Source: Enterobacter phage CC31 | Direction: 5' to 3' (one strand) | Sequence record: NC_014662.1 | Length of the DNA: 64,000 nucleotides | Shown here: piece by piece, positions 1-59,607 of the stretch | How positions within the stretch are numbered: the first letter of the stretch is position 1 | Layout: every line of letters begins with the position of its first letter | Translations under genes and position numbers: made by a program | The notes under the pieces: generated by a model | The model's input: only the letters and a program-made list of their open reading frames with translations | The model's database searches: none | Told to the model about the DNA's origin: nothing

Positions 1-1432
1 TGGTAAAATTGTAACTGATTCTGGTGTTCTGTTAACTGAACCAGAAACTGCTACCGAGCAAATGACTTCAGTTGCGTTCCAAACTGCGTTAAAAACTTAT
101 GGAATGCCAGGTGTCGCTGCTCTTTATCCAGGTGAGCTTGGTTCTCAGTTAGAACTTGAAATTGTCTCTAAAGCTGGATTTGAACAGGGCGCTGCTACAC
201 AGCTTCCAATTTATCCTGCTGGTGGTACTCGAGTATCAACTGCTCGTGCTGTATTCGGTTATGGACCACAATCTGACGACCAATATTGCATTATCGTTCG
301 CCGCGATGGAGCTATTGTAGAAAGCTTCGTTCTGTCTACTGAAAAAGGCTCTAAGGACGTTTACGGAAATAACATCTATATTGATGATTTCTTCTCTAAA
401 GGTTCAAGCAATTACATCTTTGCTACTGCTCAAGGCTGGCCTGCTGGATTCTCCGGTATTGTTCAGTTATCTGGCGGTGTATCAGCTAACGAATCTGTTA
501 CTGCTGGCGATGTAATGCAAGCATGGGATTTATTCGCTGACCGTGAAGCTCTGCATGTTAACCTCTTAATTGCTGGTGCATGTGCTGGTGAAGACCAAGA
601 ATTCGCATCTACCGTTCAGAAACACGTAGTATCAATTGCCGATGAACGTCAAGATTGTCTGGCTCTTATTTCTCCTCCACGTAGTGTGCTGGTTAATATT
701 CCACTGACTCGTGCGATTGATAATCTGGTCGATTGGCGTACAGGTCAAGGTACCTACACTGATGCAAACATGAATATTAGTTCAACTTATGCATCTATTG
801 ATGGTAACTACAAATATCAGTATGACAAATATAACGATGTTAACCGTTGGGTTCCGTTAGCTGCTGATATGGCTGGTCTGTGTGCTCGTACTGATAATAT
901 CAGTCAGCCTTGGATGTCTCCAGCTGGTTATAACCGTGGACAGATTCTGAACGTCATTAAATTGGCAATCGAACCTCGTCAGAGCCAACGTGACCGTCTG
1001 TATCAGGAAGCAATTAACCCTGTTACTGGCACCGGTGGTGACGGATTCGTTCTGTTTGGCGATAAGACTGCAACCAAAGTTCCTACTCCGTTTGACCGCA
1101 TCAACGTACGTCGTCTGTTCAACATGCTGAAAACGAATATTGGAAACGCTTCTAAATATCGTCTGTTCGAGATGAACGATAACTTCACTCGTTCAAGCTT
1201 CCGTATGGAAACCTCTCAGTACTTGTCTGGAATTAAATCTCTGGGCGGTGTATATGAATTCCGTGTGGTATGTGATACTACGAACAACACGCCTGCTGTA
1301 ATCGACCGCAATGAGTTTGTTGCATCGTTCTACATCAAGCCAGCTCGTTCTATCAACTACATCACTCTGAACTTCGTTGCTACTGCTACGGGTGCTGATT
1401 TCGATGAACTGATTGGACCACAAGCTCAATAA
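1..1432 (+). CDS. 18: tail sheath protein, C-terminal ~476 codons; 5' end is upstream of the window
   Basis: Frame is open from the window edge to TAA at 1430-1432; sits directly upstream of the tail tube gene as in T4. Confidence 0.8.
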   Translation, partial: GKIVTDSGVLLTEPETATEQMTSVAFQTALKTYGMPGVAALYPGELGSQLELEIVSKAGFEQGAATQLPIYPAGGTRVSTARAVFGYGPQSDDQYCIIVRRDGAIVESFVLSTEKGSKDVYGNNIYIDDFFSKGSSNYIFATAQGWPAGFSGIVQLSGGVSANESVTAGDVMQAWDLFADREALHVNLLIAGACAGEDQEFASTVQKHVVSIADERQDCLALISPPRSVLVNIPLTRAIDNLVDWRTGQGTYTDANMNISSTYASIDGNYKYQYDKYNDVNRWVPLAADMAGLCARTDNISQPWMSPAGYNRGQILNVIKLAIEPRQSQRDRLYQEAINPVTGTGGDGFVLFGDKTATKVPTPFDRINVRRLFNMLKTNIGNASKYRLFEMNDNFTRSSFRMETSQYLSGIKSLGGVYEFRVVCDTTNNTPAVIDRNEFVASFYIKPARSINYITLNFVATATGADFDELIGPQAQ

Positions 1433-1527
1433 TTCTAAGACATTTAGGGACCTTCGAGAGGAGGTCCATAAATACAATCATCTTAGGAAAACTAATTCAT
1501 CTCGGCCGCTCTGGCGAATCAGAGCGG

Positions 1528-1535
1528 TATAAATA
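1528..1535 (+). promoter_or_regulatory. late promoter core TATAAATA upstream of gene 19
   Basis: Exact T4 late consensus ~15 nt upstream of the start codon. Confidence 0.65.
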
Positions 1536-1549
1536 TAACAGGAACTCAC

Positions 1550-2041
1550 ATGGAACTTACAGATTTAACTCGTGCATTTGAATCCGGTGATTTCGCGCGT
1601 CCTAACCTGTTTGAGGTAGAAATTCCTTATCTCGGTAAGAACTTCAGCTTCAAATGTAAAGCAGCTCCACTGCCTGCTGGTATTGTTGAAAAAATTCCGG
1701 TCGGTTATATGAACCGTAAGCTTAACGTTGCCGGTGACCGTACATTCGACGATTGGACCGTGACTATCTACAATGACGATGCTCATAATACTCGTCAAGC
1801 TATTGTTGAATGGCAGGGTATCGCAGCAGGTCAAGGTAATGAAATTACTGGTGGCTCACCTGCAGAGTATAAGAAAAAAGCAATTGTCCGTCAATTCGCA
1901 CGTGATAGTAAAACAATCACTCGTGAAATTGAAATTACGGGCGTTTGGCCAACTAACGTTGGTGAAGTCCAGCTCGACTGGGATTCAAACAACGAAGTTG
2001 AGACCTTTGAAGTAACATTCTGTCTCGACTGGTGGTTGTAA
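1550..2041 (+). CDS. 19: tail tube protein
   Basis: 163 aa, same length and close match to recalled T4 gp19; TATAAATA late promoter just upstream. Confidence 0.9.
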   Translation: MELTDLTRAFESGDFARPNLFEVEIPYLGKNFSFKCKAAPLPAGIVEKIPVGYMNRKLNVAGDRTFDDWTVTIYNDDAHNTRQAIVEWQGIAAGQGNEITGGSPAEYKKKAIVRQFARDSKTITREIEITGVWPTNVGEVQLDWDSNNEVETFEVTFCLDWWL

Positions 2042-2046
2042 AATGT

Positions 2047-2060
2047 GGGCCTTCGGGCCC
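2047..2060 (+). terminator. GC hairpin GGGCCTTCGGGCCC after gene 19
   Basis: 5-bp GC stem with UUCG-type loop; no U-run, so termination is uncertain. Confidence 0.45.
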
Positions 2061-2061
2061 A

Positions 2062-2069
2062 TATAAATA
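2062..2069 (+). promoter_or_regulatory. late promoter core TATAAATA upstream of gene 20
   Basis: Exact consensus between the gene 19 hairpin and gene 20 start. Confidence 0.6.
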
Positions 2070-2101
2070 TTAGTATGCTTTAACCCTTATTGGAGACTCT
2101 A

Positions 2102-3670
2102 ATGAAATTTGACGTCTTAAGTTTGTTCGCGCCGTGGGCCAAAGTCGACGAACAGGAATACGACCAGCAGCTAAATAATAATTTAGAGTCTATCACGGCC
2201 CCTAAATTTGATGACGGCGCGACAGAGATTGAATCGGAACGTGGAGACATTGCAGGCGCTGGATTATTCCAGAGAATGTACGGTCAAAATGAACCGGGAA
2301 TGAAAAACACCAGGGAGCTTATCGATACTTACCGTCAGTTAATGAATAACTACGAAGTAGATAATGCTGTCCAAGAAATCGTCTTAGATGCAATCGTATA
2401 TGAAGACGAACATCCAGTAGTTGCACTGGATTTAGATAAAACAAATTTTAGCCCAGCGATTAAAGACCGACTGCAAGAAGAATTTAATGAAGTTCTTACT
2501 TGTCTGAATTTCGAAAGAAAAGGTCTCGACCATTTCCGTCGCTGGTACGTCGATTCTCGTATCTTCTTCCATAAAATTATTAACCCTAAAAACCCGAAAG
2601 AAGGTATTCAAGAGCTTCGTCGTTTAGACCCTCGCAATATTCAGTTCGTTCGTGAAGTTATCACTGACACTGAAGCGGGCGTGAAAATCGTTAAAGGCTA
2701 CAAAGAATATTTCGTTTATAACACCGGTCACGAATCTTATCAATGTGACGGTCGAATTTACGACGCTGGAACAAAAATTAAAATTCCAAAGGCTGCAGTT
2801 GTTTATGCACACTCTGGATTAGTTGATTGCTCAGGAAGAAACATCATCGGTTATTTGCACCGAGCTGTTAAACCTGCAAACCAGCTTAAACTGCTTGAAG
2901 ACGCAATGGTGATTTATCGTATTACACGTGCACCAGACCGTCGAGTATTTTACATTGACACAGGGAATATGCCTTCCCGTAAAGCTGCTGCTCATATGCA
3001 ACACATCATGAACACCATGAAAAACCGTGTGGTATATGATGCATCTACTGGTAAGATTAAAAACCAGCAGCATAATATGTCAATGACAGAAGATTATTGG
3101 TTACAGCGTCGTGACGGTAAAGCTGTTACTGAAATCGATAATATGCCTGGTGCTACTGGTATGAACGAAATGGACGATGTCCGTTGGTTCAAGAACAACC
3201 TTTACCAAGCATTACGTGTTCCACTGTCTCGTATTCCGAACGACCAGCAAGGCGGAGTTCAATTCGATGCGGGTACAGGTATTACGCGTGACGAGTTACA
3301 GTTTGCTAAATTCATTCGTGAATTGCAGCATAAGTTCGAAGAAATTTTCCTCGACCCTCTTAGAACGAATCTTGTTTTAAAAGGCGTAATGAGCGAAGAT
3401 GATTGGAAAGATGAAATAAATAACATTAAGATAGTATTTCATCGTGACAGTTACTTCACTGAACTTAAAGATGCTGAAGTTACCGAACGCAGATTCAATA
3501 TGCTTCAAATGGCCGAACCGTTTATCGGTAAGTATATTTCTCACCAGACAGCTATGAAGACTATTCTTCAAATGACTGATGAACAAATTGAACAAGAGGC
3601 TAAGCAAATTGAGCTAGAGTCTAAAGAGGCTCGTTTCCAAGACCCAGACCAAGAACAAGAGGATTTCTAA
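2102..3670 (+). CDS. 20: portal vertex protein
   Basis: N-terminus [14 protein letters not shown] and long blocks match recalled T4 gp20; ORF track start at 2090 is a TTG, ATG at 2102 preferred. Confidence 0.9.
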
Positions 3671-3912
3671 TGGAAGATTTCATCTCCGCACTCAAATCCA
3701 ACGACCTCGTTAAAGCAAAGAAAGCCTTTGGTGCTATTATGCTTGAACAGACCGCTGATTTGATTAGCCAACGTCGTGTTGAGATTGCCCAATCTATTAT
3801 GATTGAAGGCGAAGAAAAAGAAGACGACGAAGACGAGAATGATGATTCTGAAGATGAAGGTAAAGAAAAACCTGAATCTAAAGATGAAAAAGATTCTGAA
3901 GACGAAGACTAA
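3670..3912 (+). CDS. 67: prohead core protein gp67
   Basis: 80 aa with acidic C-terminal tail; ATGA overlap with gene 20 stop; T4 position. Confidence 0.8.
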   Translation: MEDFISALKSNDLVKAKKAFGAIMLEQTADLISQRRVEIAQSIMIEGEEKEDDEDENDDSEDEGKEKPESKDEKDSEDED

Positions 3913-3927
3913 GAATAAGGAGTCGCA

Positions 3928-4353
3928 ATGCTGATTGTTCCTGATGAGTACGAAGTCGTACTTGAAAACATCGAAGCAGCTATTCCTGAAGCCGAATCTC
4001 GTTTTAAGCAGTTGTCAGAAGCTCTCGATAAAGCAGACATAAATACAATTGTAGAAAACATGTTGCCAATTGAACCTGAAGTAGCAATTGCTATGGGTTC
4101 ACTGAATGAAGAAATGCAGCTCAATGAATTTATCGTTAAGCATGTTTCTTCTCGTGGAGAAATTACGCGTACTAAAGACCGTAAAACCCGCGAGCGTCAA
4201 GCATTCCAAACAACTGGTTTATCTAAAGCTAAACGTCGCGCTATCGCTCGAAAAGTCGTTAAGTCCAAACGCGCTAATCCGTCTGGTACTGTACGAGGCA
4301 ACCGCAAACGTAAGAAAGCTATGAAACGTCGTCAGGCGTTAGGATTAAGCTAA
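3928..4353 (+). CDS. 68: prohead core protein gp68
   Basis: 141 aa, basic C-terminus, T4 position between 67 and 21. Confidence 0.75.
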
Positions 4354-4994
4354 TGAATGAACCCCAATTACTCATTGAGCATTGGGGTCAACCCGGCGAA
4401 ATTTTGAATGGCGTACCGATGCTTGAGTCATACGATGGCTCAGATGCTGGGCTAAAACCTGGATTATACATCGAAGGCGTGTTCATGCAAGCCGAAGTAG
4501 TTAACCGAAATAAGCGTCTTTATCCAAAGAGAGTGTTGGAAAAAGCCGTAGCTAATTATATTAAAGAGCAGGTTTCTACTAAACAAGCACTTGGAGAATT
4601 AAATCACCCACCACGTGCTAACGTTGACCCGATGCAAGCCGCAATCATCATCGAAGATATGTGGTGGAAAGGAAACGATGTTTATGGACGAGCTCGTATT
4701 ATTGAAGGTGACCACGGTCCTGGAGATAAACTCGCTGCAAACATTCGTGCTGGCTGGATTCCTGGAGTATCTAGTCGTGGACTAGGCTCATTAACGGAAA
4801 CCAATAAAGGCTACCGTATCGTAAACGAAGGATTTAAACTCACCGTTGGCGTTGATGCTGTGTGGGGACCTTCTGCACCAGATGCTTGGGTAACTCCGAA
4901 GCAGATTTCGGAATCCGCTGAGGCGCAAGTCGCCAAAAAGAATGACGATGAGTCATTTAAAGCTCTCGTAGAGAGTCTCGAAAAAGCATTATAA
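4353..4994 (+). CDS. 21: prohead core scaffold protein and protease
   Basis: 213 aa, T4 gp21 length and position. Confidence 0.85.
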   Translation: MNEPQLLIEHWGQPGEILNGVPMLESYDGSDAGLKPGLYIEGVFMQAEVVNRNKRLYPKRVLEKAVANYIKEQVSTKQALGELNHPPRANVDPMQAAIIIEDMWWKGNDVYGRARIIEGDHGPGDKLAANIRAGWIPGVSSRGLGSLTETNKGYRIVNEGFKLTVGVDAVWGPSAPDAWVTPKQISESAEAQVAKKNDDESFKALVESLEKAL

Positions 4995-4997
4995 ATA
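4990..4997 (+). promoter_or_regulatory. late promoter core TATAAATA upstream of gene 22
   Basis: Exact consensus overlapping the gene 21 stop codon. Confidence 0.6.
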
Positions 4998-5027
4998 ATA
5001 ATGTAACTTAACAACAGGACTAACAAA

Positions 5028-5843
5028 ATGCTGAAAGACATCCTGCTCCAGGAAGCTCAGAATATTGAAGCTACCGTAGCTGTGGACAGTATTTTCGAAT
5101 CGGTCGAGCTTTCTCCGGAAGTAAAAGCGAAGTTCGAAACTGTATTCGAAGCAACTGTAAAGAAACATGCCGTTGAACTGGCTGAATCCCACATTACCAA
5201 AATTGCTGAAATGGCTGACGAAAAGCTGAAAGATGCTAAAGACGAAGCCGAAGAAAAAGCTGAAAAGAAACTGACTGAACATGCTTCTCGTTTCTTCAAT
5301 CACATCGCTCAAGAATGGATGAATGAAAACAAACTGGCTGTTGATAAAGGCATCAAAGCTGAACTGTTTGAATCCATGTTCGCTGGTATGAAAGAACTGT
5401 TCGTTGAACACAACGTTGTTCTGCCAGAAGAATCAGTTGATGTAGTTGCTGAAATGGAAGAAGAACTGGCTGAAGCTCGTGAAGAAATCAGCAATCTGTT
5501 CGAAGGTATTTCTGCTCGCGACGAAAAAATTAATACCATGCTGCGTGAAAGCGCTGTAATGGAATCAACTAAAGACTTGACCGACGTTCAGAAAGAGAAA
5601 GTAGCTTCTCTGACCGAAGGTATGGAATATTCCGACGAATTCTCAAGTAAGCTGTCTGCCATCGTCGAAATGGTTAAAGGCTCCGTCGAGAAAGAGGTAG
5701 TAAATGAAAGCATAAATACTACCGACAATGATGCTGACGGTCTCAACTTCATTACTGAAGAACATATTGAGCCAGAAGAAAAAGTATCAAAACAGCCATC
5801 GATGATGGACGCATACGTAGCCTCTGCGGCACGTCTTTCTTAA
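5028..5843 (+). CDS. 22: prohead scaffolding protein
   Basis: 271 aa, highly acidic and helical, T4 gp22-like; late promoter upstream. Confidence 0.85.
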   Translation: MLKDILLQEAQNIEATVAVDSIFESVELSPEVKAKFETVFEATVKKHAVELAESHITKIAEMADEKLKDAKDEAEEKAEKKLTEHASRFFNHIAQEWMNENKLAVDKGIKAELFESMFAGMKELFVEHNVVLPEESVDVVAEMEEELAEAREEISNLFEGISARDEKINTMLRESAVMESTKDLTDVQKEKVASLTEGMEYSDEFSSKLSAIVEMVKGSVEKEVVNESINTTDNDADGLNFITEEHIEPEEKVSKQPSMMDAYVASAARLS

Positions 5844-5865
5844 TTTTTAAAAGGTTATAAAACAC

Positions 5866-7428
5866 ATGAAAAAGATTAATCCGTTAGTAGAAAAATGGAC
5901 TCCGCTGCTTGAGAACGAAGCACTGCCTGAAATCGTTGGTGCTGGTAAAAAAGCTCTGATTGCAAAAATCATGGAAAACCAGGAATCAGCTATTAAAACT
6001 GAACCTGCATTCCGTGATGAAAAAATCGCTGAAGCATTTGGTTCGTTCCTGACTGAAGCAGAAATTGGTGGTGACCACGGTTATGATGCTCAGAACATCG
6101 CTGCTGGCCAAACCTCTGGTGCAGTAACTCAGATTGGACCAGCTGTTATGGGCATGGTACGTCGTGCAATTCCTAACCTGATTGCTTTCGACATCTGTGG
6201 TGTTCAGCCAATGAGTTCTCCTACCGGTCAGGTATTCGCTCTGCGTGCCGTTTACGGTAAAGACCCTCTGGCTGCTGGTGCTAAAGAAGCATTCCACCCA
6301 ATGTACGCTCCAGATGCAATGTTCTCTGGTCAGGGTGCTGCTGAGAAATTCGCTGCTGTAAAAGCTGCTGACGTTCTGACTGTTGGTACTATCGTAGTTC
6401 ACGATTTCGCTGATGTTGGTCGCGCTTACTTCCAGGTTGCTGAAGGTTTCACAGTAGATGCTGGTGCTACCGATGCTGAAAAACTGGATAAAGCAGTTAA
6501 AGCTGCTGAAGAAGCTGGTCAGCTGGTAGAAATCGCTGAAGGTATGGCTACCTCCGTAGCTGAACTGCAGGAAAACTTCAACGGTTCTACTGATAACCCA
6601 TGGAATGAAATGGGCTTCCGTATCGATAAACAAGTTATCGAAGCTAAATCCCGTCAGCTGAAAGCTCAGTACTCTATTGAACTGGCTCAAGATTTACGTG
6701 CTGTTCACGGTATGGACGCGGATGCTGAACTGTCTGGTATCCTGGCTACCGAAATCATGCTGGAAATCAACCGCGAAGTTGTAGATTGGATTAACTACTC
6801 TGCTCAACTGGGTAAAACCGGTATGACTCAGACTGTTGGTTCTAAAGCTGGTGTATTTGACTTCCAGGACCCAGTAGATATTCGTGGCGCTCGTTGGGCA
6901 GGTGAAAGCTTCAAAGCTCTGCTGTTCCAAATCGACAAAGAAGCTGCTGAAATCGCACGTCAGACTGGTCGTGGTGCTGGTAACTTCATCATCGCTTCTC
7001 GTAACGTAGTTAACGCTCTGGCAGCTGTTGATACTGGCGTTACTCCTGCTGCTCAGGGTCTGGGTCAAGGCTTCAATGCTGATACCACTAAGACTGTGTT
7101 CGCAGGTATTCTGGGCGGTCGTTATAAAGTATACATCGACCAGTACGCTCGTCAGGACTACTTCACCATTGGTTACAAAGGTGCTAACGAGATGGATGCT
7201 GGTATCTACTACGCTCCATACGTTGCTCTGACTCCACTGCGTGGTTCCGACCCTAAAAACTTCCAGCCAGTCATGGGCTTCAAAACCCGTTACGGTATTG
7301 GTATCAACCCGTTTGCTGATAGTGCATCACAGCAGCCGAATGCTCGCATTCAGTCTGGTATGCCTTCTATCGTCAACTCTGTTGGTAAGAACGCGTACTT
7401 CCGTCGCATCTGGGTTAAAGGTCTGTAA
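5866..7428 (+). CDS. 23: major capsid protein
   Basis: 520 aa, close match to recalled T4 gp23; followed by GNRA-loop terminator. Confidence 0.95.
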   Translation: MKKINPLVEKWTPLLENEALPEIVGAGKKALIAKIMENQESAIKTEPAFRDEKIAEAFGSFLTEAEIGGDHGYDAQNIAAGQTSGAVTQIGPAVMGMVRRAIPNLIAFDICGVQPMSSPTGQVFALRAVYGKDPLAAGAKEAFHPMYAPDAMFSGQGAAEKFAAVKAADVLTVGTIVVHDFADVGRAYFQVAEGFTVDAGATDAEKLDKAVKAAEEAGQLVEIAEGMATSVAELQENFNGSTDNPWNEMGFRIDKQVIEAKSRQLKAQYSIELAQDLRAVHGMDADAELSGILATEIMLEINREVVDWINYSAQLGKTGMTQTVGSKAGVFDFQDPVDIRGARWAGESFKALLFQIDKEAAEIARQTGRGAGNFIIASRNVVNALAAVDTGVTPAAQGLGQGFNADTTKTVFAGILGGRYKVYIDQYARQDYFTIGYKGANEMDAGIYYAPYVALTPLRGSDPKNFQPVMGFKTRYGIGINPFADSASQQPNARIQSGMPSIVNSVGKNAYFRRIWVKGL

Positions 7429-7439
7429 TCCAATTAAAT

Positions 7440-7469
7440 GGGAGCCGCAAGGCTCCCATTGTTGTTTCT
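7440..7469 (+). terminator. intrinsic terminator after gene 23
   Basis: GGGAGCC-GCAA-GGCTCCC stem-loop followed by ATTGTTGTTTCT. Confidence 0.7.
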
Positions 7470-7513
7470 ACGGATGATAAATAAAAGTATAATCCACTAG
7501 AGGAAAAGCGACG

Positions 7514-8797
7514 ATGGCTAACATCCATGACCTTCTGCGCGAATCAACTACAACGACGAGTTCAATTTCTGCCCGTCCTAGCCTCGTTGCATTGACTCGC
7601 GCTACTACTAAATTAATTTACTCTGATATTGTAGCTACTCAGCGTACTACTCAACCTACTGCTGCTTTCTACGGTATCAAATATTTGAACCCTAACAAAG
7701 AATTAACGTTCCTTACTGGTGCTACCTACGCAGGTCAAACTGGTACTGAGGACCGTAAATCTATTGAAACATTAACTGCTTCAAATAAAGATTCATTTGG
7801 CAAGGGTGATTTGTTCAAATACGATGACATTGTTTACAAAGTACTTGTAGATAATCCATTTGACCAGATTACTGAAACTGATTTAGAAGTTGTAATTCAG
7901 ATTTCTCTGGTTAAACTCACTACTCGTTTAATGTCTGACGCTGCTATCACTTCCAAGTTTGAAACTGCTGGAGCTGATATCGCTGAAGCTAAATTCCAAA
8001 TTGATAAATGGCAGACTCAAGTTAAATCTCGTAAACTTAAAACGAGCTTGACTGTTGAATTGGCCCAGGACCTTGAAGCTAATGGCTTTGATGCTTCCAA
8101 TTTTATCGATGATTTACTGGCTACTGAAATGGCCGATGAAATTAACAAAGACATTTTACAAAGTCTTGTGACAGTTTCAAAACGATATAAAGTTGAAGGT
8201 ATCACAGATACTGGATTCATCGATTTATCTTATGCATCTGCTCCAGAAGCTGGTCGTTCTCTGTATCGCATGGTATGCGAAATGGTTTCTCATATTCAGC
8301 GCTCAACATCCTTTACGGCAACATTCGCTGTAGCATCTACTCGTGCTGCTGCTGTTCTTGCTGCATCAGGTTGGTTGAAGCATAAACCTGAAGATGATGA
8401 TTATCTGTCACAGAACGCTTATGGTTTCCTGGCAAACGGTTTGCCTCTGTATTGCGATACTAACACTCCACTCGATTATGTAATCGTCGGTGTAGTAGAA
8501 GATATTGGTGATAAAGAAGTTGTATCGAGTATTTTCTATGCTCCATACACTGAAGGTATCGACCTTGATGACCCGGAACACGTTGGTGCATTTAAAGTAA
8601 TTGTTGACCCAGAAAGCTTACAGCCTTCTGTAGCTTTATTCGTTCGTTATGCATTGTCTGCTAACCCGTATACTGTAGCTAAAGATGAAAAGGAAGCTCG
8701 AATCATTGATGGCGGGGATATGGATAAGATGGCAGGACGTTCTGATTTATCAGTTCTTCTTGGTGTTAAGTTACCAAAAATCATCATTGAAGACTAA
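7514..8797 (+). CDS. 24: capsid vertex protein
   Basis: 427 aa, gp23 paralog at the T4 gene 24 position. Confidence 0.9.
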   Translation: MANIHDLLRESTTTTSSISARPSLVALTRATTKLIYSDIVATQRTTQPTAAFYGIKYLNPNKELTFLTGATYAGQTGTEDRKSIETLTASNKDSFGKGDLFKYDDIVYKVLVDNPFDQITETDLEVVIQISLVKLTTRLMSDAAITSKFETAGADIAEAKFQIDKWQTQVKSRKLKTSLTVELAQDLEANGFDASNFIDDLLATEMADEINKDILQSLVTVSKRYKVEGITDTGFIDLSYASAPEAGRSLYRMVCEMVSHIQRSTSFTATFAVASTRAAAVLAASGWLKHKPEDDDYLSQNAYGFLANGLPLYCDTNTPLDYVIVGVVEDIGDKEVVSSIFYAPYTEGIDLDDPEHVGAFKVIVDPESLQPSVALFVRYALSANPYTVAKDEKEARIIDGGDMDKMAGRSDLSVLLGVKLPKIIIED

Positions 8798-8803
8798 AAG
8801 AAA

Positions 8804-8826
8804 GGGAACCTCACGGTTCCCTTTTG
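8804..8826 (+). terminator. intrinsic terminator after gene 24
   Basis: GGGAACC-TCAC-GGTTCCC followed by TTTTG. Confidence 0.7.
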
Positions 8827-8829
8827 TAG

Positions 8830-9375
8830 TTATAAAGCAAATATATCGAATGTTGGTGCGTATTTTTCTTTAAATCTCTGATAGATTTCTTTCTCGTACA
8901 GATTGTAGCAAGGTATACCATGACGCTTGGCTATATCAACGGCCACTCGTGTCCCTCCAGTAACGCTAGAGAGTTTTATTGGAGCATAGAATAGTACCAT
9001 ATCCACAGGTGACTGGCAATCCTCTCCGAGCACCTGAAGTGCATTGCGGGCAAATAGAGTCTTCACTATATCCCGGCACTCATCCCAGTAGCTTGTCACT
9101 TCTCTTGCTTTAATTACACTCCTGATTCTCACTTCATTTGGAAAGTCTTTCCACACCTTTACTCCAACTCCAGTTTTAAGACCATTGAAGCCTTCGTATG
9201 GTATGATACGTAATGAACGTTCACGGTCGTATCTACTGAGCCATGATTCATCTGCACCAGGAGCACCTCCCGAATACGAAAAATGGCCTGACTCCGAAAG
9301 AGCCTGACCAGTTAATGACATGACATCTAAAACACGACGTGGCGTCTCTCGAGAACCGATTAACGCCAAACGCAT
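8830..9375 (-). CDS. conserved protein with DprA/Smf-like Rossmann (SLOG-type) motifs
   Basis: 181 aa; motifs IGSRETP ... SGGAPGADESW ... SSVTGGTRVAVDIA resemble the DprA/Smf nucleotide-binding fold; convergent with gene 24. Confidence 0.6.
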   Translation of the reverse strand: MRLALIGSRETPRRVLDVMSLTGQALSESGHFSYSGGAPGADESWLSRYDRERSLRIIPYEGFNGLKTGVGVKVWKDFPNEVRIRSVIKAREVTSYWDECRDIVKTLFARNALQVLGEDCQSPVDMVLFYAPIKLSSVTGGTRVAVDIAKRHGIPCYNLYEKEIYQRFKEKYAPTFDIFAL

Positions 9376-10379
9376 TAGTTACTTACCAGTTCAATCCAAA
9401 CTGGACGAATTACGCCTTGCACGTAATTGACAAGTTCTTTCTTGACTACATCAGGATTATCAGCGTCAGTAATGAAGATTTCTTCACGGCCAGCTTCTTC
9501 CAGAATATCCTGGACAGTAAGACCCATAACTTTACCAAAGTCCTTTGGACCAACTTGGCCAATCTTACTGATAACGTTATTGACTCGGTTCAGAGTAGCA
9601 TAAGCTGCCAGCGTAGAGAAAGCAACCTTATCAACATCAGTTAATTCAACCTTAGCTTTAATAGGCTTATCGGATTTAGCTTTCTCAGAGAACTTGGAGT
9701 TCTTGCATTTAATAGCTACGCGAGAACCATTAGGGAAAAATTTAGGGTAGCATGGTTTCAGAACGTAGCCTTCGGCGATATTACTTTCTGATACAACCGC
9801 TTGGAATGGCATAGTATTAGCTTCTTCAAGACCATGAGCTTCAATAGCTTGATTATAGCGATTAACTACAACATCCAGCATATTAGGAATTTGAATCAGG
9901 TCATCGAATTTACCACGGCCCAGAAGTGGAGCCATTTTAAACCCAAAGACGTTACACATACGTTCCATCATAAAATCATCAACGTAAGACGATTCACCTG
10001 ATTCGGTAGTCACTTTAATATCAAAGACGTAGAAGTCTTTTTCACCGTAATCAACACCCTTCTGAATTCCGCCGCCAGCAAATTCACCAAAGATTTGATA
10101 AGCTACTGTAGCACCAGTCAGTGCAGCTTGAACAGCTTTAAAGGACTCGTTATAACGACCCATGATAACCATATAGCCAAAGAAGTCTTCTGCTGGCAGA
10201 ATAGGACCAGTACGCTTGGCAGGTTGGATGCTATCTTTAGTTACGATAACAGAGAAGTTAGTGCCGTGAATTTTCTCACGCGCTACCCAAGTTTCAGAGA
10301 CATCAAAACCAGCATTACGAATACGCTCAATGAATTTACCGTTGTAGTGGTTCTCGAGCGTTGAATATTTCTCAAACAT
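9375..10379 (-). CDS. rnlB: RNA ligase 2
   Basis: 334 aa; [10 protein letters not shown] lysine-nucleotidyltransferase motif and overall match to recalled T4 Rnl2. Confidence 0.9.
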
Positions 10380-10387
10380 ATTTCACC

Positions 10388-10636: not shown

Positions 10637-10750
10637 TATAATCACCATATAAATATCAATAATTAGGGAGGGTTCTATCCTTCTATCGTCAAGCGTATGT
10701 ACTAGAAAGAATCCGTGAAACCATTATACCACGCGGATTCTTTAAGCATA

Positions 10751-11332: not shown

Positions 11333-11377
11333 GGTAATATCCTACAGTAAAAGATGTTGATATAATACCACTCTCCA

Positions 11378-11404
11378 GAAAAAGCAAAAGGAGCCTTCGG
11401 GCTC
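11378..11404 (-). terminator. intrinsic terminator after hoc (minus strand)
   Basis: GGAGCC-CGAA-GGCTCC on minus strand followed by TTTTGCTTTTT. Confidence 0.7.
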
Positions 11405-11407
11405 CTT

Positions 11408-12106
11408 TTAATAGATGATACCAGCTTCTAAAGCTGAACGATGAACAATACGTCCATTACGTGATTCTTGAACATCAACTTCAGGGTAGTCTTCAATCAT
11501 TTTAGCTAACGTAGCCAAATGACAGTAATAAGGAGTATCAGAAGCGGTTGCAGTTTTCCAGTCTTTACCTTCTTCAGTAAGTTTCTGAATTGCATCCATA
11601 ACCCACCAACCAGCCCAGATATAAGCACTAGAGCGATGCGGAAGTGGATGAACATAGAGAATTGGGCATTCGTCTGGAACAACTGGCTCGGCAGCTTCAA
11701 CTGTAATATTCAGCACATTTGAAGTTTTAACAGTGTCTTCGTATCCAGTTGCTTTAGCAGTTACTTCACATGTTAAAGCAACATTTCCTTCCGTTTGAGC
11801 TACTGCACTAATATCAGCCGTAGTTTCTCCGGTTGACCATTTGTAAGCAAGAGTTGCTCCTGATGGTTGACCTGTTACTCCACAGGTTGCACTATAGCTT
11901 TCACCAACTTTAACAGTTTGAGACTGAGCTGAAATAGTAACAGTAAGATTCATAACGTCATTTACTGTTAAGTTAGTAGTTGCGGTTTGAATATCGTCTG
12001 GGTCTTCACCAGCTTTAGTGGTTGAAGTAACTTTAACTACTTTAGTTCCAGCCGAGTCAGCGGTGTAATCCAAAGTATCAGTCACAGATGATTGTACTAC
12101 AACCAT
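11408..12106 (-). CDS. hoc: outer capsid decoration protein Hoc, main reading frame (232 codons)
   Basis: Ig-like repeats plus C-terminal capsid-binding block PLPHRSSAYIW.GWWVMD...YPEVDVQESRNG matching recalled T4 Hoc; the true N-terminus lies in another frame (next feature). Confidence 0.8.
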   Translation of the reverse strand: MVVVQSSVTDTLDYTADSAGTKVVKVTSTTKAGEDPDDIQTATTNLTVNDVMNLTVTISAQSQTVKVGESYSATCGVTGQPSGATLAYKWSTGETTADISAVAQTEGNVALTCEVTAKATGYEDTVKTSNVLNITVEAAEPVVPDECPILYVHPLPHRSSAYIWAGWWVMDAIQKLTEEGKDWKTATASDTPYYCHLATLAKMIEDYPEVDVQESRNGRIVHRSALEAGIIY

Positions 12107-12219: not shown

Positions 12220-12252
12220 ATAATTTCCATTATTTAAGAGGGACAAGCCCTC

Positions 12253-13031: not shown

Positions 13032-13037
13032 TAAATG

Positions 13038-14802: not shown

Positions 14803-14827
14803 AAAAAAGGCCCCTCAAAAGAGGGGC
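14803..14827 (-). terminator. intrinsic terminator after uvsY.-2, between convergent transcription units
   Basis: GCCCCTC-TTTT-GAGGGGC on minus strand followed by CTTTTTTATT. Confidence 0.65.
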
Positions 14828-22794: not shown

Positions 22795-22799
22795 AAAAA

Positions 22800-22829
22800 G
22801 GGAGCCGCAAGGCTCCCTTTGTTTTATTT
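22800..22829 (+). terminator. intrinsic terminator after gene 54
   Basis: GGGAGCC-GCAA-GGCTCCC followed by TTTGTTTTATTT; hairpin identical to the one after gene 23. Confidence 0.75.
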
Positions 22830-23114
22830 GCGGAACACCACGAAAGCATTCAGAACAACTTCCGAAGATTGCTCAATGTTAGTTACAGTGATTTTAAACG
22901 GAACTTCACCATTGAACTTACCGTTCAGAGTGTAAGCGATATACCCCTCACATTTGTCTTCTGGAATTCCGAAAGGTGCCAGTGGAACCATTTCAACCAT
23001 TCCTTTAGCAATCTTTTGAATCTCGTTAAAGACCATGTTATTGAATTCGTCAGATACTGGAACTACACCTTCAACAACAGTTTCTTGGCCATTCATACGC
23101 AGAATCGATTTCAT
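22824..23114 (-). CDS. hypothetical protein (T4 alt.-1 position)
   Basis: ORF trimmed to MKSILRMNGQ because an early promoter -10 lies over the longer N-terminus. Confidence 0.55.
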   Translation of the reverse strand: MKSILRMNGQETVVEGVVPVSDEFNNMVFNEIQKIAKGMVEMVPLAPFGIPEDKCEGYIAYTLNGKFNGEVPFKITVTNIEQSSEVVLNAFVVFRK

Positions 23115-25340: not shown

Positions 25341-25363
25341 GACAACAAAAGCCCCGAAGGGCT

Positions 25364-25582
25364 TTAGACTGCAATAATATTCCTGAAGATTTCAACCTTT
25401 CCACCGCCACGGGTAGCAATGACCTCATGCTTGTTAATTCCGGAAACTCGACCATCTGTAAATGATTCCACTTCACCCTGTGGACGGAATGGTAATTCGA
25501 CCAAACTCTGTGTTACATTAGCGGCTCGTCCTGAGCCTTCACCTGGATGAGCAATTGTGATAATTTCTAAATAGAATTTCAT
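25364..25582 (-). CDS. hypothetical protein
   Basis: 72 aa, ATGA overlap with gene 30 stop. Confidence 0.55.
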   Translation of the reverse strand: MKFYLEIITIAHPGEGSGRAANVTQSLVELPFRPQGEVESFTDGRVSGINKHEVIATRGGGKVEIFRNIIAV

Positions 25583-29330: not shown

Positions 29331-29369
29331 AACTATTTCCTCAAGTAGAGGGGCCGAAGCCCCTAATTT

Positions 29370-30324: not shown

Positions 30325-30348
30325 AGTTTCCTCATAAGGCCCGAAGGC

Positions 30349-30723
30349 CTAGAACATTTTACGTTCGGTCCAGTTATCAAGATTAACTGTGCCAGTTTTC
30401 TTCATTTTCTCAATCAAGTTATCTGCGCGAGTGCGTCCATTTTCATACCACACTACATCTTCAGAATAACCATCTTCGTCTTCATAAGTTTCTGAACGAA
30501 TGTGACCGTGAATGCTTGTTTTCAAAACGTATTCAGAGCCAGTGAACCAGTTAGTCAAAACGATGTACCAGCAGAAATCAGTAGATGGACCATCAGGAGT
30601 CATACAGTGAACTACATCTCCTTGCCATGAAGACAGATGCCACATTGGCTCTTCTACTTCAATTGCTTTATATCCGTCATGGTCTTTCGTTTTGATTTTA
30701 GCGTTCAGATTAATTGTGTTCAT
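30349..30723 (-). CDS. hypothetical protein
   Basis: Trimmed to MNTINLN behind early promoter and ACGGAG ribosome-binding site. Confidence 0.6.
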   Translation of the reverse strand: MNTINLNAKIKTKDHDGYKAIEVEEPMWHLSSWQGDVVHCMTPDGPSTDFCWYIVLTNWFTGSEYVLKTSIHGHIRSETYEDEDGYSEDVVWYENGRTRADNLIEKMKKTGTVNLDNWTERKMF

Positions 30724-31008: not shown

Positions 31009-31036
31009 ACAAAAAAGGGACTCCCGAAGGAGTCCC
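31009..31036 (-). terminator. intrinsic terminator (minus strand)
   Basis: GGGACTCC-TTCG-GGAGTCCC on minus strand followed by TTTTTTGTTT. Confidence 0.65.
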
Positions 31037-36514: not shown

Positions 36515-36565
36515 ATTATTTTCCTCAAAGTTTATTATCCCGATGAGGCCCGAAGGCCTCAATTA

Positions 36566-39396: not shown

Positions 39397-39422
39397 AACA
39401 GAAGGGCCCGAAGGCCCTCTCC

Positions 39423-47396: not shown

Positions 47397-47428
47397 TTCA
47401 ATCTCCAAAGGGCCCGAAGGCCCCATTA

Positions 47429-48127: not shown

Positions 48128-48156
48128 AGAAACAACAAAAGGAGCCCGAAGGCTCC
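48128..48156 (-). terminator. intrinsic terminator after gene 32 (minus strand)
   Basis: GGAGCC-TTCG-GGCTCC on minus strand followed by TTTTGTTGTTT. Confidence 0.75.
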
Positions 48157-48164
48157 TTCTTTTA

Positions 48165-55093: not shown

Positions 55094-56241
55094 TGGCTAA
55101 AATGATGGCGAGTTTTGGACAAGGATTTGTCCAAACTCAAGTTCTTTCTGAGAACAATTCCGTCAAGTATAAGCTAGCATTTGCGGCAGGGGTAGCTCAG
55201 TCTACCCCTTCTGAAGCTTATTATACTTTCCAGGATGAACCTGCTGGGGTTCAATATGACGGCCCAGGTATAAACCTGAGAGAATTTAATCCAGCAACTA
55301 ATCAAATGCTTAACTTCAAAACTTTTAATTTAAATCCTGAAGACGCAAACGCGGCTACTAAAGCATTTGTGCAACATATGCAAACCCTCCCGGCTTCTGA
55401 TAATTTGCTTATCATTACATCATATGAGAGGCTTTATTCAAGCCCTTCTGTAGATGCTTTGATGAAATCTCTTGGTTCAGTTATGTGGCCAAGTATATTT
55501 CTTACTACAAATTATGGATGCAATTACTGTGCTTTGTACTCTATTAGAAGAAAGAAAATAATTGCTGAAAACACAACATATTCAGATTTCAAAAAAGAGA
55601 ATAGAGACATACGTCCAGCTTTAGAATTCATTTATGATAAAGCAAATGATATCGGAGCTACTGGATATTCACAAAAAGCTATTGATGATTCAAACACATA
55701 TATCATTGATAAAGATAATCCAAGTAAAAGATTTCCGCAGCAGCTTGAGCAAATATCTCCAATAAATCAATACGGAATTGCTCCTGGAGATAAAATGCAG
55801 TGGAACTTTGAAGTAAAAGGAGATTCTTCTTTAACAGCTCCAGGACAAAACATTAGAGTAAATCTTCGTTGGTTCCAAGGCACTTCATATCTTTCTGGAG
55901 CAGTAGTTGAAACACAACCGACTGACGCAGATAAATGGATGTGGCACCAGAGATATGTAACCGTTCCTGATAATGCTGATGGATTTACAATAATTGCTTC
56001 TCGTTATCCAGAAGTAGCTGGTTCTGAAGGAAGCGGTGCTATTCGTGAAATGATGCTCACTCAAGTATCGAGAGCTGTAGAACCTCTTATGGACCCGGCT
56101 GGATTTGGTGTAAACGGAATCAGAATGAACAATATGATTTCTGATGGTGTAGATGAAAATACACTGTTAGTTCTTCCTGATACAGAAGACGATAAATCTG
56201 GTAATATCTACTCGGCTGACTTCAGAGAGTATAATGACTAA
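55093..56241 (+). CDS. 35: long tail fibre hinge connector gp35
   Basis: 382 aa, ATGA overlap with gene 34, T4 position. Confidence 0.8.
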   Translation: MAKMMASFGQGFVQTQVLSENNSVKYKLAFAAGVAQSTPSEAYYTFQDEPAGVQYDGPGINLREFNPATNQMLNFKTFNLNPEDANAATKAFVQHMQTLPASDNLLIITSYERLYSSPSVDALMKSLGSVMWPSIFLTTNYGCNYCALYSIRRKKIIAENTTYSDFKKENRDIRPALEFIYDKANDIGATGYSQKAIDDSNTYIIDKDNPSKRFPQQLEQISPINQYGIAPGDKMQWNFEVKGDSSLTAPGQNIRVNLRWFQGTSYLSGAVVETQPTDADKWMWHQRYVTVPDNADGFTIIASRYPEVAGSEGSGAIREMMLTQVSRAVEPLMDPAGFGVNGIRMNNMISDGVDENTLLVLPDTEDDKSGNIYSADFREYND

Positions 56242-56300
56242 AGCCCTTCGGGGCTTTTGTTGTTTCTGAATAAATACAACAAACATATAAGGGGAAGGCC

Positions 56301-59574: not shown

Positions 59575-59579
59575 TTTAA

Positions 59580-59593
59580 GGGCCTTCGGGCCC
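59580..59593 (+). terminator. GC hairpin GGGCCTTCGGGCCC after gene 37
   Basis: Identical to the hairpin after gene 19; no clean U-run. Confidence 0.4.
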
Positions 59594-59607
59594 TAGAGGA
59601 TTTTTAT

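What the first reader, a model, noticed from the sequence alone, without database searches (positions are those of the whole stretch)
2047..2060. Identical GC hairpins reused after different late genes
GGGCCTTCGGGCCC occurs after gene 19 (2047-2060) and after gene 37 (59580-59593); GGGAGCCGCAAGGCTCCC occurs after gene 23 (7440-7457) and after gene 54 (22800-22817). Exact reuse suggests a selected RNA 3'-end or stability element, or spread by recombination.
Basis: seen in the sequence. Interest (0 to 1): 0.3.

Follow-up and report, generated by a model that had tools for sequence, protein, structure and literature searches.

The report
Stable tetraloop hairpins between T4-like genes
The repeated GC hairpins are real, but they are the well-known extra-stable UUCG and GNRA tetraloop RNA hairpins that T4-type phages place between genes, so the finding is ordinary.

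Summary
GGGCCTTCGGGCCC occurs four times, not two: 2047+, 59580+, 39404-, 47410-. GGGAGCCGCAAGGCTCCC occurs twice. No shuffle gave any copy. The window is a T4-like Karamvirus, apparently Enterobacter phage CC31.

These sequences belong to a set of about 18 intergenic GC hairpins. Twelve are C(UUCG)G hairpins, and 11 of those have UUCG on the mRNA strand. In 2.1 Mb of related phages, intergenic UUCG hairpins are 205 sense to 1 antisense. Orthologous junctions keep a hairpin but change its stem. So an RNA structure is selected. This is the phenomenon first described in T4 by Tuerk et al. in 1988.

The two repeated sequences differ in kind:
- **GCAA copies (after gp23 and gp54):** canonical intrinsic terminators with a U-tract.
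- **GGGCC-UUCG copies:** none has a canonical U-tract, and each sits inside an operon. One abuts a late promoter. Two lie just 5' of a Shine-Dalgarno sequence. One lies between the Shine-Dalgarno sequence and the AUG of denA, 22 nt apart, as in T4 gene 38.

Exact reuse mostly reflects a small shared vocabulary of optimal stems. Four identical copies among 12 has P about 0.12. A modest within-genome excess and loop swaps hint at some gene conversion. Novelty is low.

The parts
2043..2064 (+). UUCG hairpin after gene 19 (tail tube). The core is GGGCC-UUCG-GGCCC at 2047-2060 and extends to 9 bp. It has no U-tract, and its 3' arm runs into the late-promoter core TATAAATA at 2062-2069 upstream of gene 20.
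   Evidence: Fold energy is -15.7 kcal/mol, z = -2.8. Promoter core. Not listed as terminator-like. A hairpin is present at the 19/20 junction in nearly all of 79 related loci, with other stems.
59579..59594 (+). UUCG hairpin after gene 37. The stop codon lies 5 nt upstream. It is followed by TA-GAGG (Shine-Dalgarno) and then, 8 nt on, the ATG of gene 38. It has no U-tract.
   Evidence: Not terminator-like on the sense strand. Conserved in Karamvirus relatives, including one with a 53%-identical gp37 C-terminus.
39402..39419 (-). UUCG hairpin between nrdB and denA: TAA-GGAGA-[GGGCC UUCG GGCCC]-UUCUGUU-AUG. The Shine-Dalgarno sequence lies 5' of the hairpin and the AUG 3' of it, 22 nt apart. 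This is a candidate split ribosome-binding site.
   Evidence: Fold energy is -17.6 kcal/mol, z = -3.2. The same layout occurs in 10 lineages at 58-100% identity plus T4, with stems GGGCC, AGGGC or GGGGC and no Shine-Dalgarno sequence between hairpin and ATG. The T4 gene 37/38 junction is near-identical.
47409..47424 (-). UUCG hairpin between two small ORFs of unknown function, downstream of gene 32. The stop codon lies 5 nt upstream. It is followed by UUU-GGAG (Shine-Dalgarno) and then, 7 nt on, the ATG.
   Evidence: Fold z is only -0.9 in a 46-nt context. Not terminator-like.
7437..7469 (+). Intrinsic terminator after gene 23 (major head protein): a 10-bp stem, GCAA (GNRA) loop and the tail UUGUUGUUUCU.
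   Evidence: Fold energy is -21 kcal/mol, z = -4.5. First-ranked terminator-like site in 1-20000. A terminator hairpin follows gp23 in nearly all of 72 related loci.
22797..22830 (+). Intrinsic terminator after gene 54 at a convergent gene junction: a 10-bp stem, GCAA loop, A-run upstream and U-run downstream, so it has a bidirectional shape.
   Evidence: Fold energy is -21.1 kcal/mol, z = -4.0. First-ranked terminator-like site in 20001-40000. The loop is inverted to TTGC in a 99%-identical relative.
56238..56267 (+). UUCG terminator after gene 35: AAAGCCC-UUCG-GGGCUUU plus the tail UGUUGUUUCU. A 25-nt stretch is identical to the site at 25343-25367 (-).
25343..25367 (-). UUCG terminator-like hairpin identical to the one after gene 35, followed by the late-promoter core TATAAATA.
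48128..48160 (-). UUCG terminator after gene 32: AGAAGGAGCC-UUCG-GGCUCCUUUU plus the tail GUUGUUUCU.
31017..31036 (-). UUCG terminator: GGGACUCC-UUCG-GGAGUCCC followed by UUUUUUGUUU.
29349..29364 (-). UUCG hairpin (AGGGGC-UUCG-GCCCCU) with no U-tract, between small early-region ORFs.
30337..30350 (-). UUCG hairpin (AGGCC-UUCG-GGCCU) with no U-tract, followed directly by a Shine-Dalgarno sequence and ATG.
36544..36561 (-). UUCG hairpin (UGAGGCC-UUCG-GGCCUCA) with no U-tract.
11385..11410 (.). Terminator of bidirectional shape after the hoc-like gene: AAAAGGAGCC-loop-GGCUCCUUUU. It is the only UUCG hairpin whose loop is antisense to the flanking genes. Three sister genomes carry the inverted loop.
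8800..8825 (.). Terminator at the convergent junction after gene 24. The loop reads UCAC on the plus strand and GUGA (GNRA) on the minus strand.
14810..14827 (.). Terminator at a convergent junction: GCCCCUC-loop-GAGGGGC, with a U-run on the minus strand.
1448..1528 (+). Two hairpins after gene 18: 1448-1467 with a GAGA (GNRA) loop, and 1505-1528 with a 6-nt loop. The second abuts the late-promoter core TATAAATA at 1528, upstream of gene 19.
   Evidence: The T4 18/19 junction has the same hairpin-plus-promoter layout.

Best explanation
The repeated strings are small GC-clamped RNA hairpins capped by the two classes of unusually stable tetraloop, C(UUCG)G and GNRA. T4-type phages place these on the mRNA strand in the short gaps between genes. 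They act in the transcript, not in the DNA.

**1. GGGAGCC-GCAA-GGCUCCC after gp23 and gp54.** Each is a canonical factor-independent terminator with a 7-10 bp stem followed by a U-rich tract. They end the heavily used late transcripts. The one after gp54 sits where two genes converge and can work in both directions.

**2. The four GGGCC-UUCG-GGCCC copies.** These are 5-7 bp hairpins without a canonical U-tract, inside operons, starting 5-6 nt after a stop codon. Inferred role: they form as soon as the terminating ribosome leaves. They would then act as barriers to 3'-to-5' exonucleases, or as weak attenuators that define stable cistron ends and insulate the next gene's start region. What each one does would depend on what follows it:
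- The 19/20 copy abuts a late promoter.
- The 37/38 copy and the 47410 copy lie just 5' of a Shine-Dalgarno sequence.
- The nrdB/denA copy lies between the Shine-Dalgarno sequence and the AUG. It would shorten a 22-nt spacing to about 8 nt, as shown experimentally for T4 gene 38.

**Why copies are identical.** Very few stems are in use: a G-rich 5' arm, a C-G closing pair and a UUCG loop. Independent sites therefore often converge on the same 14-mer. Occasional gene conversion between hairpins may add to this.
For: **Shown directly**
- The copies exist and none is expected by chance.
- The hairpins are the predicted minimum-energy structures, with z from -2.1 to -4.5 for five of six.
- All 12 intergenic CTTCGG/CCGAAG hexamers in the window form hairpins. 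None of the 27 in coding sequence does.
- 11 of 18 sense hexamers are hairpins, against 1 of 21 antisense.
- In 2.1 Mb from 77 T4-like contigs, intergenic hairpins are strongly sense-biased: UUCG 205:1, GAAA 61:2, GCAA 38:1, UACG 20:1, GUAA 19:0.
- Orthologous junctions keep a hairpin while stems differ. After gp19 the stems include GGGCC, GGAGC, GAGGC, GGGUC, GGGGC and GGCGGA, with a G-U intermediate in L031. After gp23 they include GGGAGCC, GGGAACC, GGGAGAC, GGGACC and GGGAGAGC. The nrdB/denA junction behaves the same way.
- Both GCAA copies rank first as terminator-like sites. None of the four GGGCC copies qualifies on the sense strand.
- Family-wide, 83 of 188 stable-tetraloop hairpins have a U-tract and 105 do not. 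So both classes are general.
- T4 itself has the same features at the same junctions.
- The CC31 denA junction, TAAGGAGA-GGGCCUUCGGGCCC-UUCUGUU-AUG, matches the T4 gene 38 junction, TAAGGAGAG-GGGCUUCGGCCC-UUCUAAAU-AUG, with the same 22-nt spacing.
- 115 UUCG hairpins in 32 dereplicated genomes use only 39 distinct 14-mers. Drawing 12 at random gives at least four identical with P=0.12.

**From the literature**
- CUUCGG hairpins were discovered in T4 intercistronic mRNA and are extraordinarily stable. This is Tuerk et al. 1988, as described in PMC4371310 and PMC8948821.
- In T4, sense-strand CTTCGG is flanked by complementary arms more than half the time, and antisense never (PMC7165471).
- The gene 38 and gene 25 hairpins that bridge a split Shine-Dalgarno/AUG pair enhance translation (PMC3014915).
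Against: - No transcript 3'-end, RNA half-life or translation data exist for this phage. I found no 3'-end mapping study of T4 in the held library. Every functional role is therefore inferred from sequence.
- The 47410 copy does not fold better than shuffled sequence in its 46-nt context (z = -0.9).
- The role of the copies without a U-tract is the weakest step. They could be weak terminators, nuclease barriers, start-region insulators or simply tolerated.
- In several relatives the denA hairpin is followed by a U-run (GCCCCUUUUUUAAU). An attenuator role there is as plausible as a split ribosome-binding site.
- A test of G-U against A-C mismatches in stems was inconclusive (7 against 4).
- Within-genome identity exceeds the vocabulary expectation about two-fold. 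Convergence alone is therefore not the whole story.
Confidence: 0.8

Rival explanations
1. The identical copies arose mainly at the DNA level. Hairpin cassettes would spread or homogenise by recombination or gene conversion between the palindromes, in the manner of the PeSL promoter/stem-loop cassettes of T4-like phages. Identity would then reflect common descent rather than convergent selection.
For: - Within-genome identical 14-mers number 22 of 591 pairs, against 11.3 +/- 3.3 expected from the family vocabulary (P=0.004).
- GGGCC makes up 4 of 12 UUCG hairpins here, against 6 of 105 elsewhere (Fisher P=0.01).
- Identities often extend beyond the stem. Examples are the 25-mer at 56238/25343, the tail TTGTTGTTTCT after three different stems, and 22-28 nt identities between the gp23 and gp32 terminators in other genera.
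- At the gp23 terminator the nearest outgroup has GGGAGCC-TTCG-GGCTCCC. Karamvirus has GCAA, a change at all four loop bases, which makes it identical to the gp54 terminator.
- Loop inversions between near-identical genomes show that the palindromes are recombinationally active.
- Recombination at stem-loop/promoter cassettes is documented, and T4 deletions at GGGC...GCCC repeats are cited there (PMC2839356, PMC4122927).
Against: - The flanks of the four GGGCC copies share nothing.
- Three of the four reader-flagged junctions (19/20, gp23 and gp54) and the nrdB/denA junction already carry a hairpin in distant relatives with other stems. So the sites are old and were not created by insertion. 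The 37/38 hairpin was seen only in the Karamvirus group and in T4.
- Vocabulary alone gives at least four identical copies with P=0.12 and at least nine identical pairs with P=0.04. For UUCG hairpins alone the within-genome excess is marginal (P=0.053).
- None of the copies has the PeSL layout, in which a sigma-70-type promoter follows the stem-loop.
Confidence: 0.25
2. All six copies are simply rho-independent terminators, so each marks a transcript 3' end.
For: - All follow a stop codon closely: by 5-6 nt for five of the six, and by 11 nt at the gp23 copy.
- The GCAA copies pass the terminator rule.
- Stem-loops of PeSL cassettes in RB49 terminate transcription in reporter assays (PMC2839356).
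- Orthologues of the denA hairpin in relatives carry U-runs.
Against: - The four GGGCC copies lack a tract of at least 5 U in 8 on the sense strand.
- Three of them lie 7-16 nt from the next start codon, with the Shine-Dalgarno sequence beside or across them. A full stop would silence denA, gene 38 and the small ORF unless each had its own promoter, and none fits in the gap.
- 105 of 188 such hairpins family-wide lack a U-tract.
Confidence: 0.15
3. The palindromes act in double-stranded or cruciform DNA. They might be a protein-binding site, a recombination or packaging signal, or a restriction-related motif, since GGGCCC is an ApaI-type site.
For: - The stems are perfect palindromes.
- Loop inversions imply that they sometimes behave as inverted repeats in DNA.
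- The PeSL authors speculated about a DNA-binding protein for GGGG...CCCC stems (PMC2839356).
Against: - A DNA palindrome has no reason to keep its loop in one orientation relative to transcription, yet the bias is 205:1.
- The loops are exactly those that stabilise RNA (UNCG, GNRA).
- The stem sequence is not conserved at orthologous sites. This argues against a sequence-specific DNA site.
Confidence: 0.05
4. The repeats are chance coincidences of short GC-rich strings.
For: The strings are short (14 and 18 nt).
Against: - No copy appeared in any of 100 dinucleotide-preserving shuffles for either string.
- All copies are intergenic, although intergenic DNA is only about 6% of the window.
Confidence: 0.01

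Closest known systems
C(UUCG)G extra-stable tetraloop hairpins of phage T4 intercistronic mRNA (Tuerk et al. 1988, PNAS 85:1364)
   Same: The loop (UUCG), the C-G closing pair, the short GC stem, the intercistronic position, the restriction to the sense strand and the phage family all match. T4 has such hairpins at several of the same junctions: after gene 23, after hoc and at 37/38.
   Different: Nothing essential differs. This genome favours the GGGCC stem (4 of 12), and none of its sites has been studied experimentally.
Rho-independent (intrinsic) transcription terminators
   Same: The GCAA copies, and the sites at 56240, 48137, 31017 and 25348, have a GC stem, a tetraloop and a U-rich tract right after a stop codon.
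   Different: The four GGGCC-UUCG copies lack the U-tract and sit 7-16 nt from the next start codon or against a promoter.
Split Shine-Dalgarno/AUG initiation regions of T4 genes 38 and 25 (Nivinskas et al. 1999; Malys and Nivinskas 2009; reviewed in PMC3014915)
   Same: In the nrdB/denA copy, GGAG and the AUG are 22 nt apart with the hairpin between them. That is the same spacing as the T4 gene 38 region, and the sequence is almost the same. The layout is conserved across genera and in T4.
   Different: The gene is different (denA). I did not find it described in the held library. No translation assay exists. In relatives the hairpin is followed by a U-run, so it could also attenuate transcription.
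PeSL cassettes (early promoter plus stem-loop) of T4-like phages (Arbiol et al. 2010, PMC2839356; Comeau et al. 2014, PMC4122927)
   Same: Both are repeated intergenic GC stem-loops joined to a promoter and a Shine-Dalgarno sequence, with recombination between copies. Here, hairpins abut late promoters at 1528, 2062 and 25340.
   Different: PeSLs carry a sigma-70-type early promoter and cluster in hyperplastic regions. The 19/20 hairpin precedes a late promoter (TATAAATA) in the conserved structural module. The other three GGGCC copies have no promoter.
Small loop inversions at hairpins in plastid non-coding DNA (from my own knowledge, for example Kelchner and Wendel 1996)
   Same: The loop is reverse-complemented between otherwise identical stems and flanks in close relatives.
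   Different: The system is different (phage terminators), and here the flip changes which strand receives the stable tetraloop.

Membership tests
C(UUCG)G stable tetraloop hairpin (Tuerk 1988) | Loop sequence UUCG closed by a C-G pair | tested here: met
   All four copies read GGGC-C(UUCG)G-GCCC. Twelve such hairpins occur in the window.
C(UUCG)G stable tetraloop hairpin (Tuerk 1988) | Flanking self-complementary arms that form a stem | tested here: met
   Stems are 5-9 bp. The hairpin is the predicted minimum-energy structure.
C(UUCG)G stable tetraloop hairpin (Tuerk 1988) | Located on the mRNA (sense) strand, mostly between cistrons | tested here: met
   Eleven of 12 hairpins are sense and all are intergenic. 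The family-wide ratio is 205:1. The single exception is a recent loop inversion.
C(UUCG)G stable tetraloop hairpin (Tuerk 1988) | Unusually high thermal stability of the RNA; blocks reverse transcriptase | not testable with these tools
   Only nearest-neighbour energies could be computed. Melting and primer-extension experiments are needed.
GNRA tetraloop hairpin | Loop of the form G-N-R-A on a Watson-Crick stem | tested here: met
   GCAA on a 7-10 bp stem at 7440 and 22800.
Intrinsic (rho-independent) terminator | GC-rich stem-loop followed within 0-2 nt by a U-rich tract (at least 5 U in 8) | tested here: met
   This row covers the GCAA copies at 7437-7460 and 22797-22820. Each is the first-ranked site in its region.
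Intrinsic (rho-independent) terminator | GC-rich stem-loop followed within 0-2 nt by a U-rich tract (at least 5 U in 8) | tested here: not met
   This row covers the four GGGCC-UUCG copies. None is listed on the sense strand. The tails are AUAUAAAU, UAGAGGAU, UUCUGUUA (borderline) and UUUGGAGA.
Intrinsic (rho-independent) terminator | Transcripts end at the U-tract in vivo or in vitro | not testable with these tools
   No RNA data exist for this phage. No T4 3'-end mapping was found in the library.
Split Shine-Dalgarno/AUG initiation region (T4 genes 38 and 25) | Shine-Dalgarno sequence and start codon too far apart (over 15 nt), with a stable hairpin filling the gap and no other Shine-Dalgarno sequence near the AUG | tested here: met
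   This row covers the 39404 copy only. GGAG is followed by 22 nt and then the AUG. The 14-18 nt hairpin lies between them, and the spacer UUCUGUU has no Shine-Dalgarno sequence. The layout is conserved in 10 lineages and in T4.
Split Shine-Dalgarno/AUG initiation region (T4 genes 38 and 25) | Stem-disrupting mutations lower translation and compensatory mutations restore it | not testable with these tools
   A reporter assay is needed.
PeSL cassette (Arbiol 2010) | Stem-loop immediately followed by a sigma-70-type early promoter, then a Shine-Dalgarno sequence and ATG | tested here: not met
   The 2047 copy is followed by the late-promoter core TATAAATA. The other three have only 7-16 nt before the ATG, and no sigma-70-like hit lies there.
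Rfam RNA families | Match at the gathering score to any curated family | tested here: not met
   No matches in the whole window.

The most novel reading that the evidence does not exclude
The hairpins may not be static convergent solutions. They could form a slowly homogenising population whose palindromic DNA undergoes gene conversion and loop inversion. That would explain the two-fold within-genome excess of identical copies, the wholesale loop replacement at the gp23 terminator and the flipped loops in sister genomes.

Separately, the same 14-mer has been taken up as the bridge of a previously undescribed split ribosome-binding site for denA. This site is conserved from T4 to Karamvirus. 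It implies that the GTG start annotated for denA in the T4 reference record is 8 codons too far upstream.
Probability: 0.3. Interest if true: 0.4.

Novelty: already known. Interest (0 to 1): 0.18.

Why it matters
As a class, these hairpins matter because they shape where phage messages end, how long each cistron's RNA survives and how some genes start translation. They are also useful compact parts for synthetic biology. But the class has been known in T4 since 1988, so the finding adds no new kind of element.

This analysis adds three things:
- Quantitative support, from 77 related contigs, that reuse comes mostly from a tiny vocabulary of optimal stems.
- Three small leads: loop inversions, possible conversion between terminators, and a conserved split ribosome-binding site at denA. 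These could be tested cheaply in T4.

Tried and rejected
- **Rfam scan of the whole window:** no family matched at the gathering score.
- **CC31 GenBank record:** neither NC_014662 nor GU323318 is in the phage collection. I therefore could not make a genome-wide count in the source genome. I used IMG/VR loci of the same contig and its relatives instead.
- **Key papers:** Tuerk 1988 (PMC279771) and the T4 genome review (PMC150520) are not held. I cite them through papers that describe them.
- **3'-end mapping of T4 RNA:** a literature search found nothing usable. A search for a described denA split ribosome-binding site also found nothing.
- **G-U against A-C mismatch test for strand-specific pairing:** too few cases to decide (7 against 4).
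- **Scan with gp36 for the tail-fibre junctions:** it returned only 5 loci. The 37/38 and 35/36 sites are therefore compared only within Karamvirus and with T4.
- **Chance:** rejected by the shuffles.
- **Duplicated segment or mobile insertion as the source of the four GGGCC copies:** rejected because the flanks are unrelated and the junctions that could be compared across genera (19/20 and nrdB/denA) are old.
- **First hairpin script:** it overwrote tetraloop calls with 8-nt-loop calls. This was corrected.

Full report
**What the window is.** The window is a T4-like myovirus of the genus Karamvirus. The best GenBank match is Enterobacter phage vB_EclM-UFV01, at 99.5% identity over the gene 19/20 region. 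An IMG/VR contig of 165,540 bp is 100% identical for every protein query used. That length matches Enterobacter phage CC31 (from my own knowledge), and the window would be about positions 96,001-160,000 of it. The CC31 record itself is not in the phage collection. It also identifies NrdB and a DenA-like endonuclease.

**Checking the observation.**
- GGGCCTTCGGGCCC occurs four times, not two: 2047 and 59580 on the plus strand, and 39404 and 47410 on the minus strand.
- GGGAGCCGCAAGGCTCCC occurs twice.
- No shuffle produced a single copy of either.
- The two extra copies lie among minus-strand nucleotide-metabolism genes, so 'late genes' is too narrow.
- The flanks of the four copies share nothing beyond the 14-mer.

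**The wider set.** A hairpin catalogue of the window (after correcting a bug) lists about 18 strong intergenic GC hairpins. Intergenic DNA is only about 6% of the window.
- Twelve are C(UUCG)G hairpins. All 12 intergenic CTTCGG/CCGAAG hexamers form a hairpin, and none of the 27 in coding sequence does.
- Relative to local gene direction, 11 of 18 sense hexamers are hairpins, against 1 of 21 antisense.
- The other loops are mostly GNRA: GCAA twice, GAGA, and GUGA on the minus strand at 8800.
- There is more exact reuse. A 25-mer is shared by the terminator after gene 35 and a minus-strand site at 25343. The tail TTGTTGTTTCT follows three terminators with different stems, after gp23, gp35 and gp32 (3 found, 0.08 expected).

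**Evidence that the RNA structure is selected.** I fetched about 2.1 Mb from 77 T4-like contigs around gp19, gp23, gp54, NrdA and gp36.
- Intergenic tetraloop hairpins are strongly strand-biased: UUCG 205 sense to 1 antisense, GAAA 61:2, GCAA 38:1, UACG 20:1, GUAA 19:0.
- At the gene 19/20 junction almost every lineage has a GC hairpin, but with a different stem (GGGCC, GGAGC, GAGGC, GGGUC, GGGGC, GGCGGA and others). The loop is UUCG, GNRA or UACG. One relative has a G-U intermediate.
- After gp23 nearly every lineage has a terminator hairpin with a varying stem.
- The nrdB/denA junction keeps TAA, a purine-rich Shine-Dalgarno-like run, a UUCG hairpin, 7-9 U-rich nt and then ATG, across lineages down to 58% protein identity.
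- T4 itself shows the same features at the same junctions.
- This reproduces a published result. CUUCGG hairpins were discovered in T4 intercistronic mRNA (Tuerk et al. 1988, as described in PMC4371310 and PMC8948821). A later count in the T4 genome found hairpin-forming flanks for more than half of sense-strand CTTCGG and for none on the antisense strand (PMC7165471).

**Two classes, not one.**
- *Terminators.* A consensus scan ranks 7437-7460 and 22797-22820 (the GCAA copies) first among terminator-like sites in their regions. It also lists 56240, 48137, 31017 and 25348. They fold at about -21 kcal/mol with z near -4.
- *Hairpins without a U-tract.* None of the four GGGCC-UUCG copies passes the U-tract rule on the sense strand. 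Their contexts differ:
  - At 2047 the stem runs into the late-promoter core TATAAATA of gene 20. The same layout occurs at 1528 and 25340, and in T4 between genes 18 and 19.
  - At 59580 and 47410 the hairpin ends 2-3 nt before a Shine-Dalgarno sequence.
  - At 39404 it lies between the Shine-Dalgarno sequence and the AUG.
- Family-wide, 83 of 188 stable-tetraloop hairpins have a U-tract and 105 do not. Of all 188, 25 have a late promoter within 30 nt. Of the 105 without a U-tract, 45 have a Shine-Dalgarno sequence and ATG within 30 nt.

**The denA junction.**
- The CC31 sequence TAAGGAGA-GGGCCTTCGGGCCC-TTCTGTT-ATG is almost the same as the T4 gene 37/38 junction, TAAGGAGAG-GGGCTTCGGCCC-TTCTAAAT-ATG. 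Both have 22 nt between GGAG and the ATG.
- For T4 gene 38 the hairpin is reported to cut that spacing to 5 nt and to enhance initiation (PMC3014915).
- T4's own nrdB/denA junction has the same layout, with a GCAA loop on the same GGGCC stem. The T4 record starts denA at a GTG inside the hairpin, adding 8 residues that relatives lack.
- I did not find this site described in the held library.
- The predicted fold also pairs the nrdB stop region with the denA start region. In relatives a U-run follows the hairpin. So coupling or attenuation remain alternatives.

**Why the copies are identical.**
- T4-like phages share a small vocabulary. The 115 UUCG hairpins in 32 dereplicated genomes use 39 distinct 14-mers. 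Six of those account for more than half, and the 5' arms are G-rich.
- Drawing 12 hairpins from the vocabulary of other genera gives at least four identical copies with P=0.12, and at least nine identical pairs with P=0.04. Reuse is therefore largely expected.
- Identical pairs are still commoner within genomes than the pooled vocabulary predicts. For UUCG hairpins alone the figures are 7.8% against 5.1% (P=0.053). For all stable tetraloops they are 22 pairs against 11.3 +/- 3.3 (P=0.004).
- Identities often run past the stem.
- The Karamvirus gp23 terminator differs from its nearest outgroup at all four loop bases. The change makes it identical to the gp54 terminator.
- These points fit occasional gene conversion, in line with the recombination reported at PeSL stem-loop cassettes (PMC2839356, PMC4122927). 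They do not prove it.

**Loop inversions.** Between genomes with near-identical flanks the loop alone is reverse-complemented at several sites:
- the hoc terminator (TTCG here, CGAA in three sister genomes);
- the gp54 terminator (GCAA against TTGC);
- the 14810 site (GAAA against TTTC);
- three sites in other genera.

The first case explains the window's only antisense UUCG hairpin, at 11395.

**Verdict.** Its explanation is the textbook one for T4-type phages: stable-tetraloop RNA hairpins serving as terminators and intercistronic structures.
- A selected RNA element: supported.
- A 3'-end role: plausible for the GCAA pair, unsupported for the GGGCC copies.
- Recombination: at most a minor contributor.

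No function was tested, because no RNA data are available.

Noticed in passing
window 11386-11409; 22800-22817; 14810-14827 (relatives L081, L082, L105, L190): Only the 4-nt loop is reverse-complemented between genomes whose stems and flanks are nearly identical. Examples are TTCG/CGAA after the hoc-like gene, GCAA/TTGC after gp54 and GAAA/TTTC at 14810. Three more cases occur in other genera. The palindromic terminators seem prone to small inversions.
   Followed up: partly
window 39397-39425 (-); T4 locus L201 12900-12975 (-): The nrdB/denA junction has the same split Shine-Dalgarno/hairpin/AUG layout and 22-nt spacing as the T4 gene 38 initiation region. It is conserved across genera. The T4 reference record starts denA at a GTG inside the hairpin, which is probably 8 codons too far upstream.
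   Followed up: partly
window 7459-7469 (+), 56257-56267 (+), 48128-48138 (-): The same 11-nt tail, TTGTTGTTTCT, follows three terminators with different stems: after gp23, gp35 and gp32. Three copies were found against 0.08 expected. TTGTTTCT also follows the gp23 terminator in many other genera, so the tail is more conserved than the stem.
   Followed up: partly
window 56238-56262 (+) and 25343-25367 (-): A 25-nt exact repeat, CTAAAGCCCTTCGGGGCTTTTGTTG, covers the hairpin and part of its tail at two unrelated junctions on opposite strands.
   Followed up: yes
window 1505-1535, 2043-2069, 25333-25365 (-); T4 locus L200 4517-4560: GC hairpins sit directly against the late-promoter core TATAAATA, 0-10 nt apart. 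This forms a composite unit that ends one message and starts the next, like a late-gene counterpart of the PeSL cassettes. In some genera the order at the 19/20 junction is reversed, with the promoter first. That would put the hairpin at the 5' end of the gene 20 message.
   Followed up: partly
window 47110-47144 (-): A 12-bp hairpin, AGGGCTATGGTG-TGT-TACTATAGCCCT, overlaps the -10 region of a T4-early-like promoter match (TTTACA, 17 nt, TACTAT with an upstream TG). Similar promoter matches recur on the minus strand at about 48051, 47762, 37852, 29798 and 23170.
   Followed up: no
L172 10987-11020 (relative, after gp54): In one Karamvirus relative the U-tract of the gp54 terminator is expanded into a tandem run of (TTTTA)n.
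   Followed up: no
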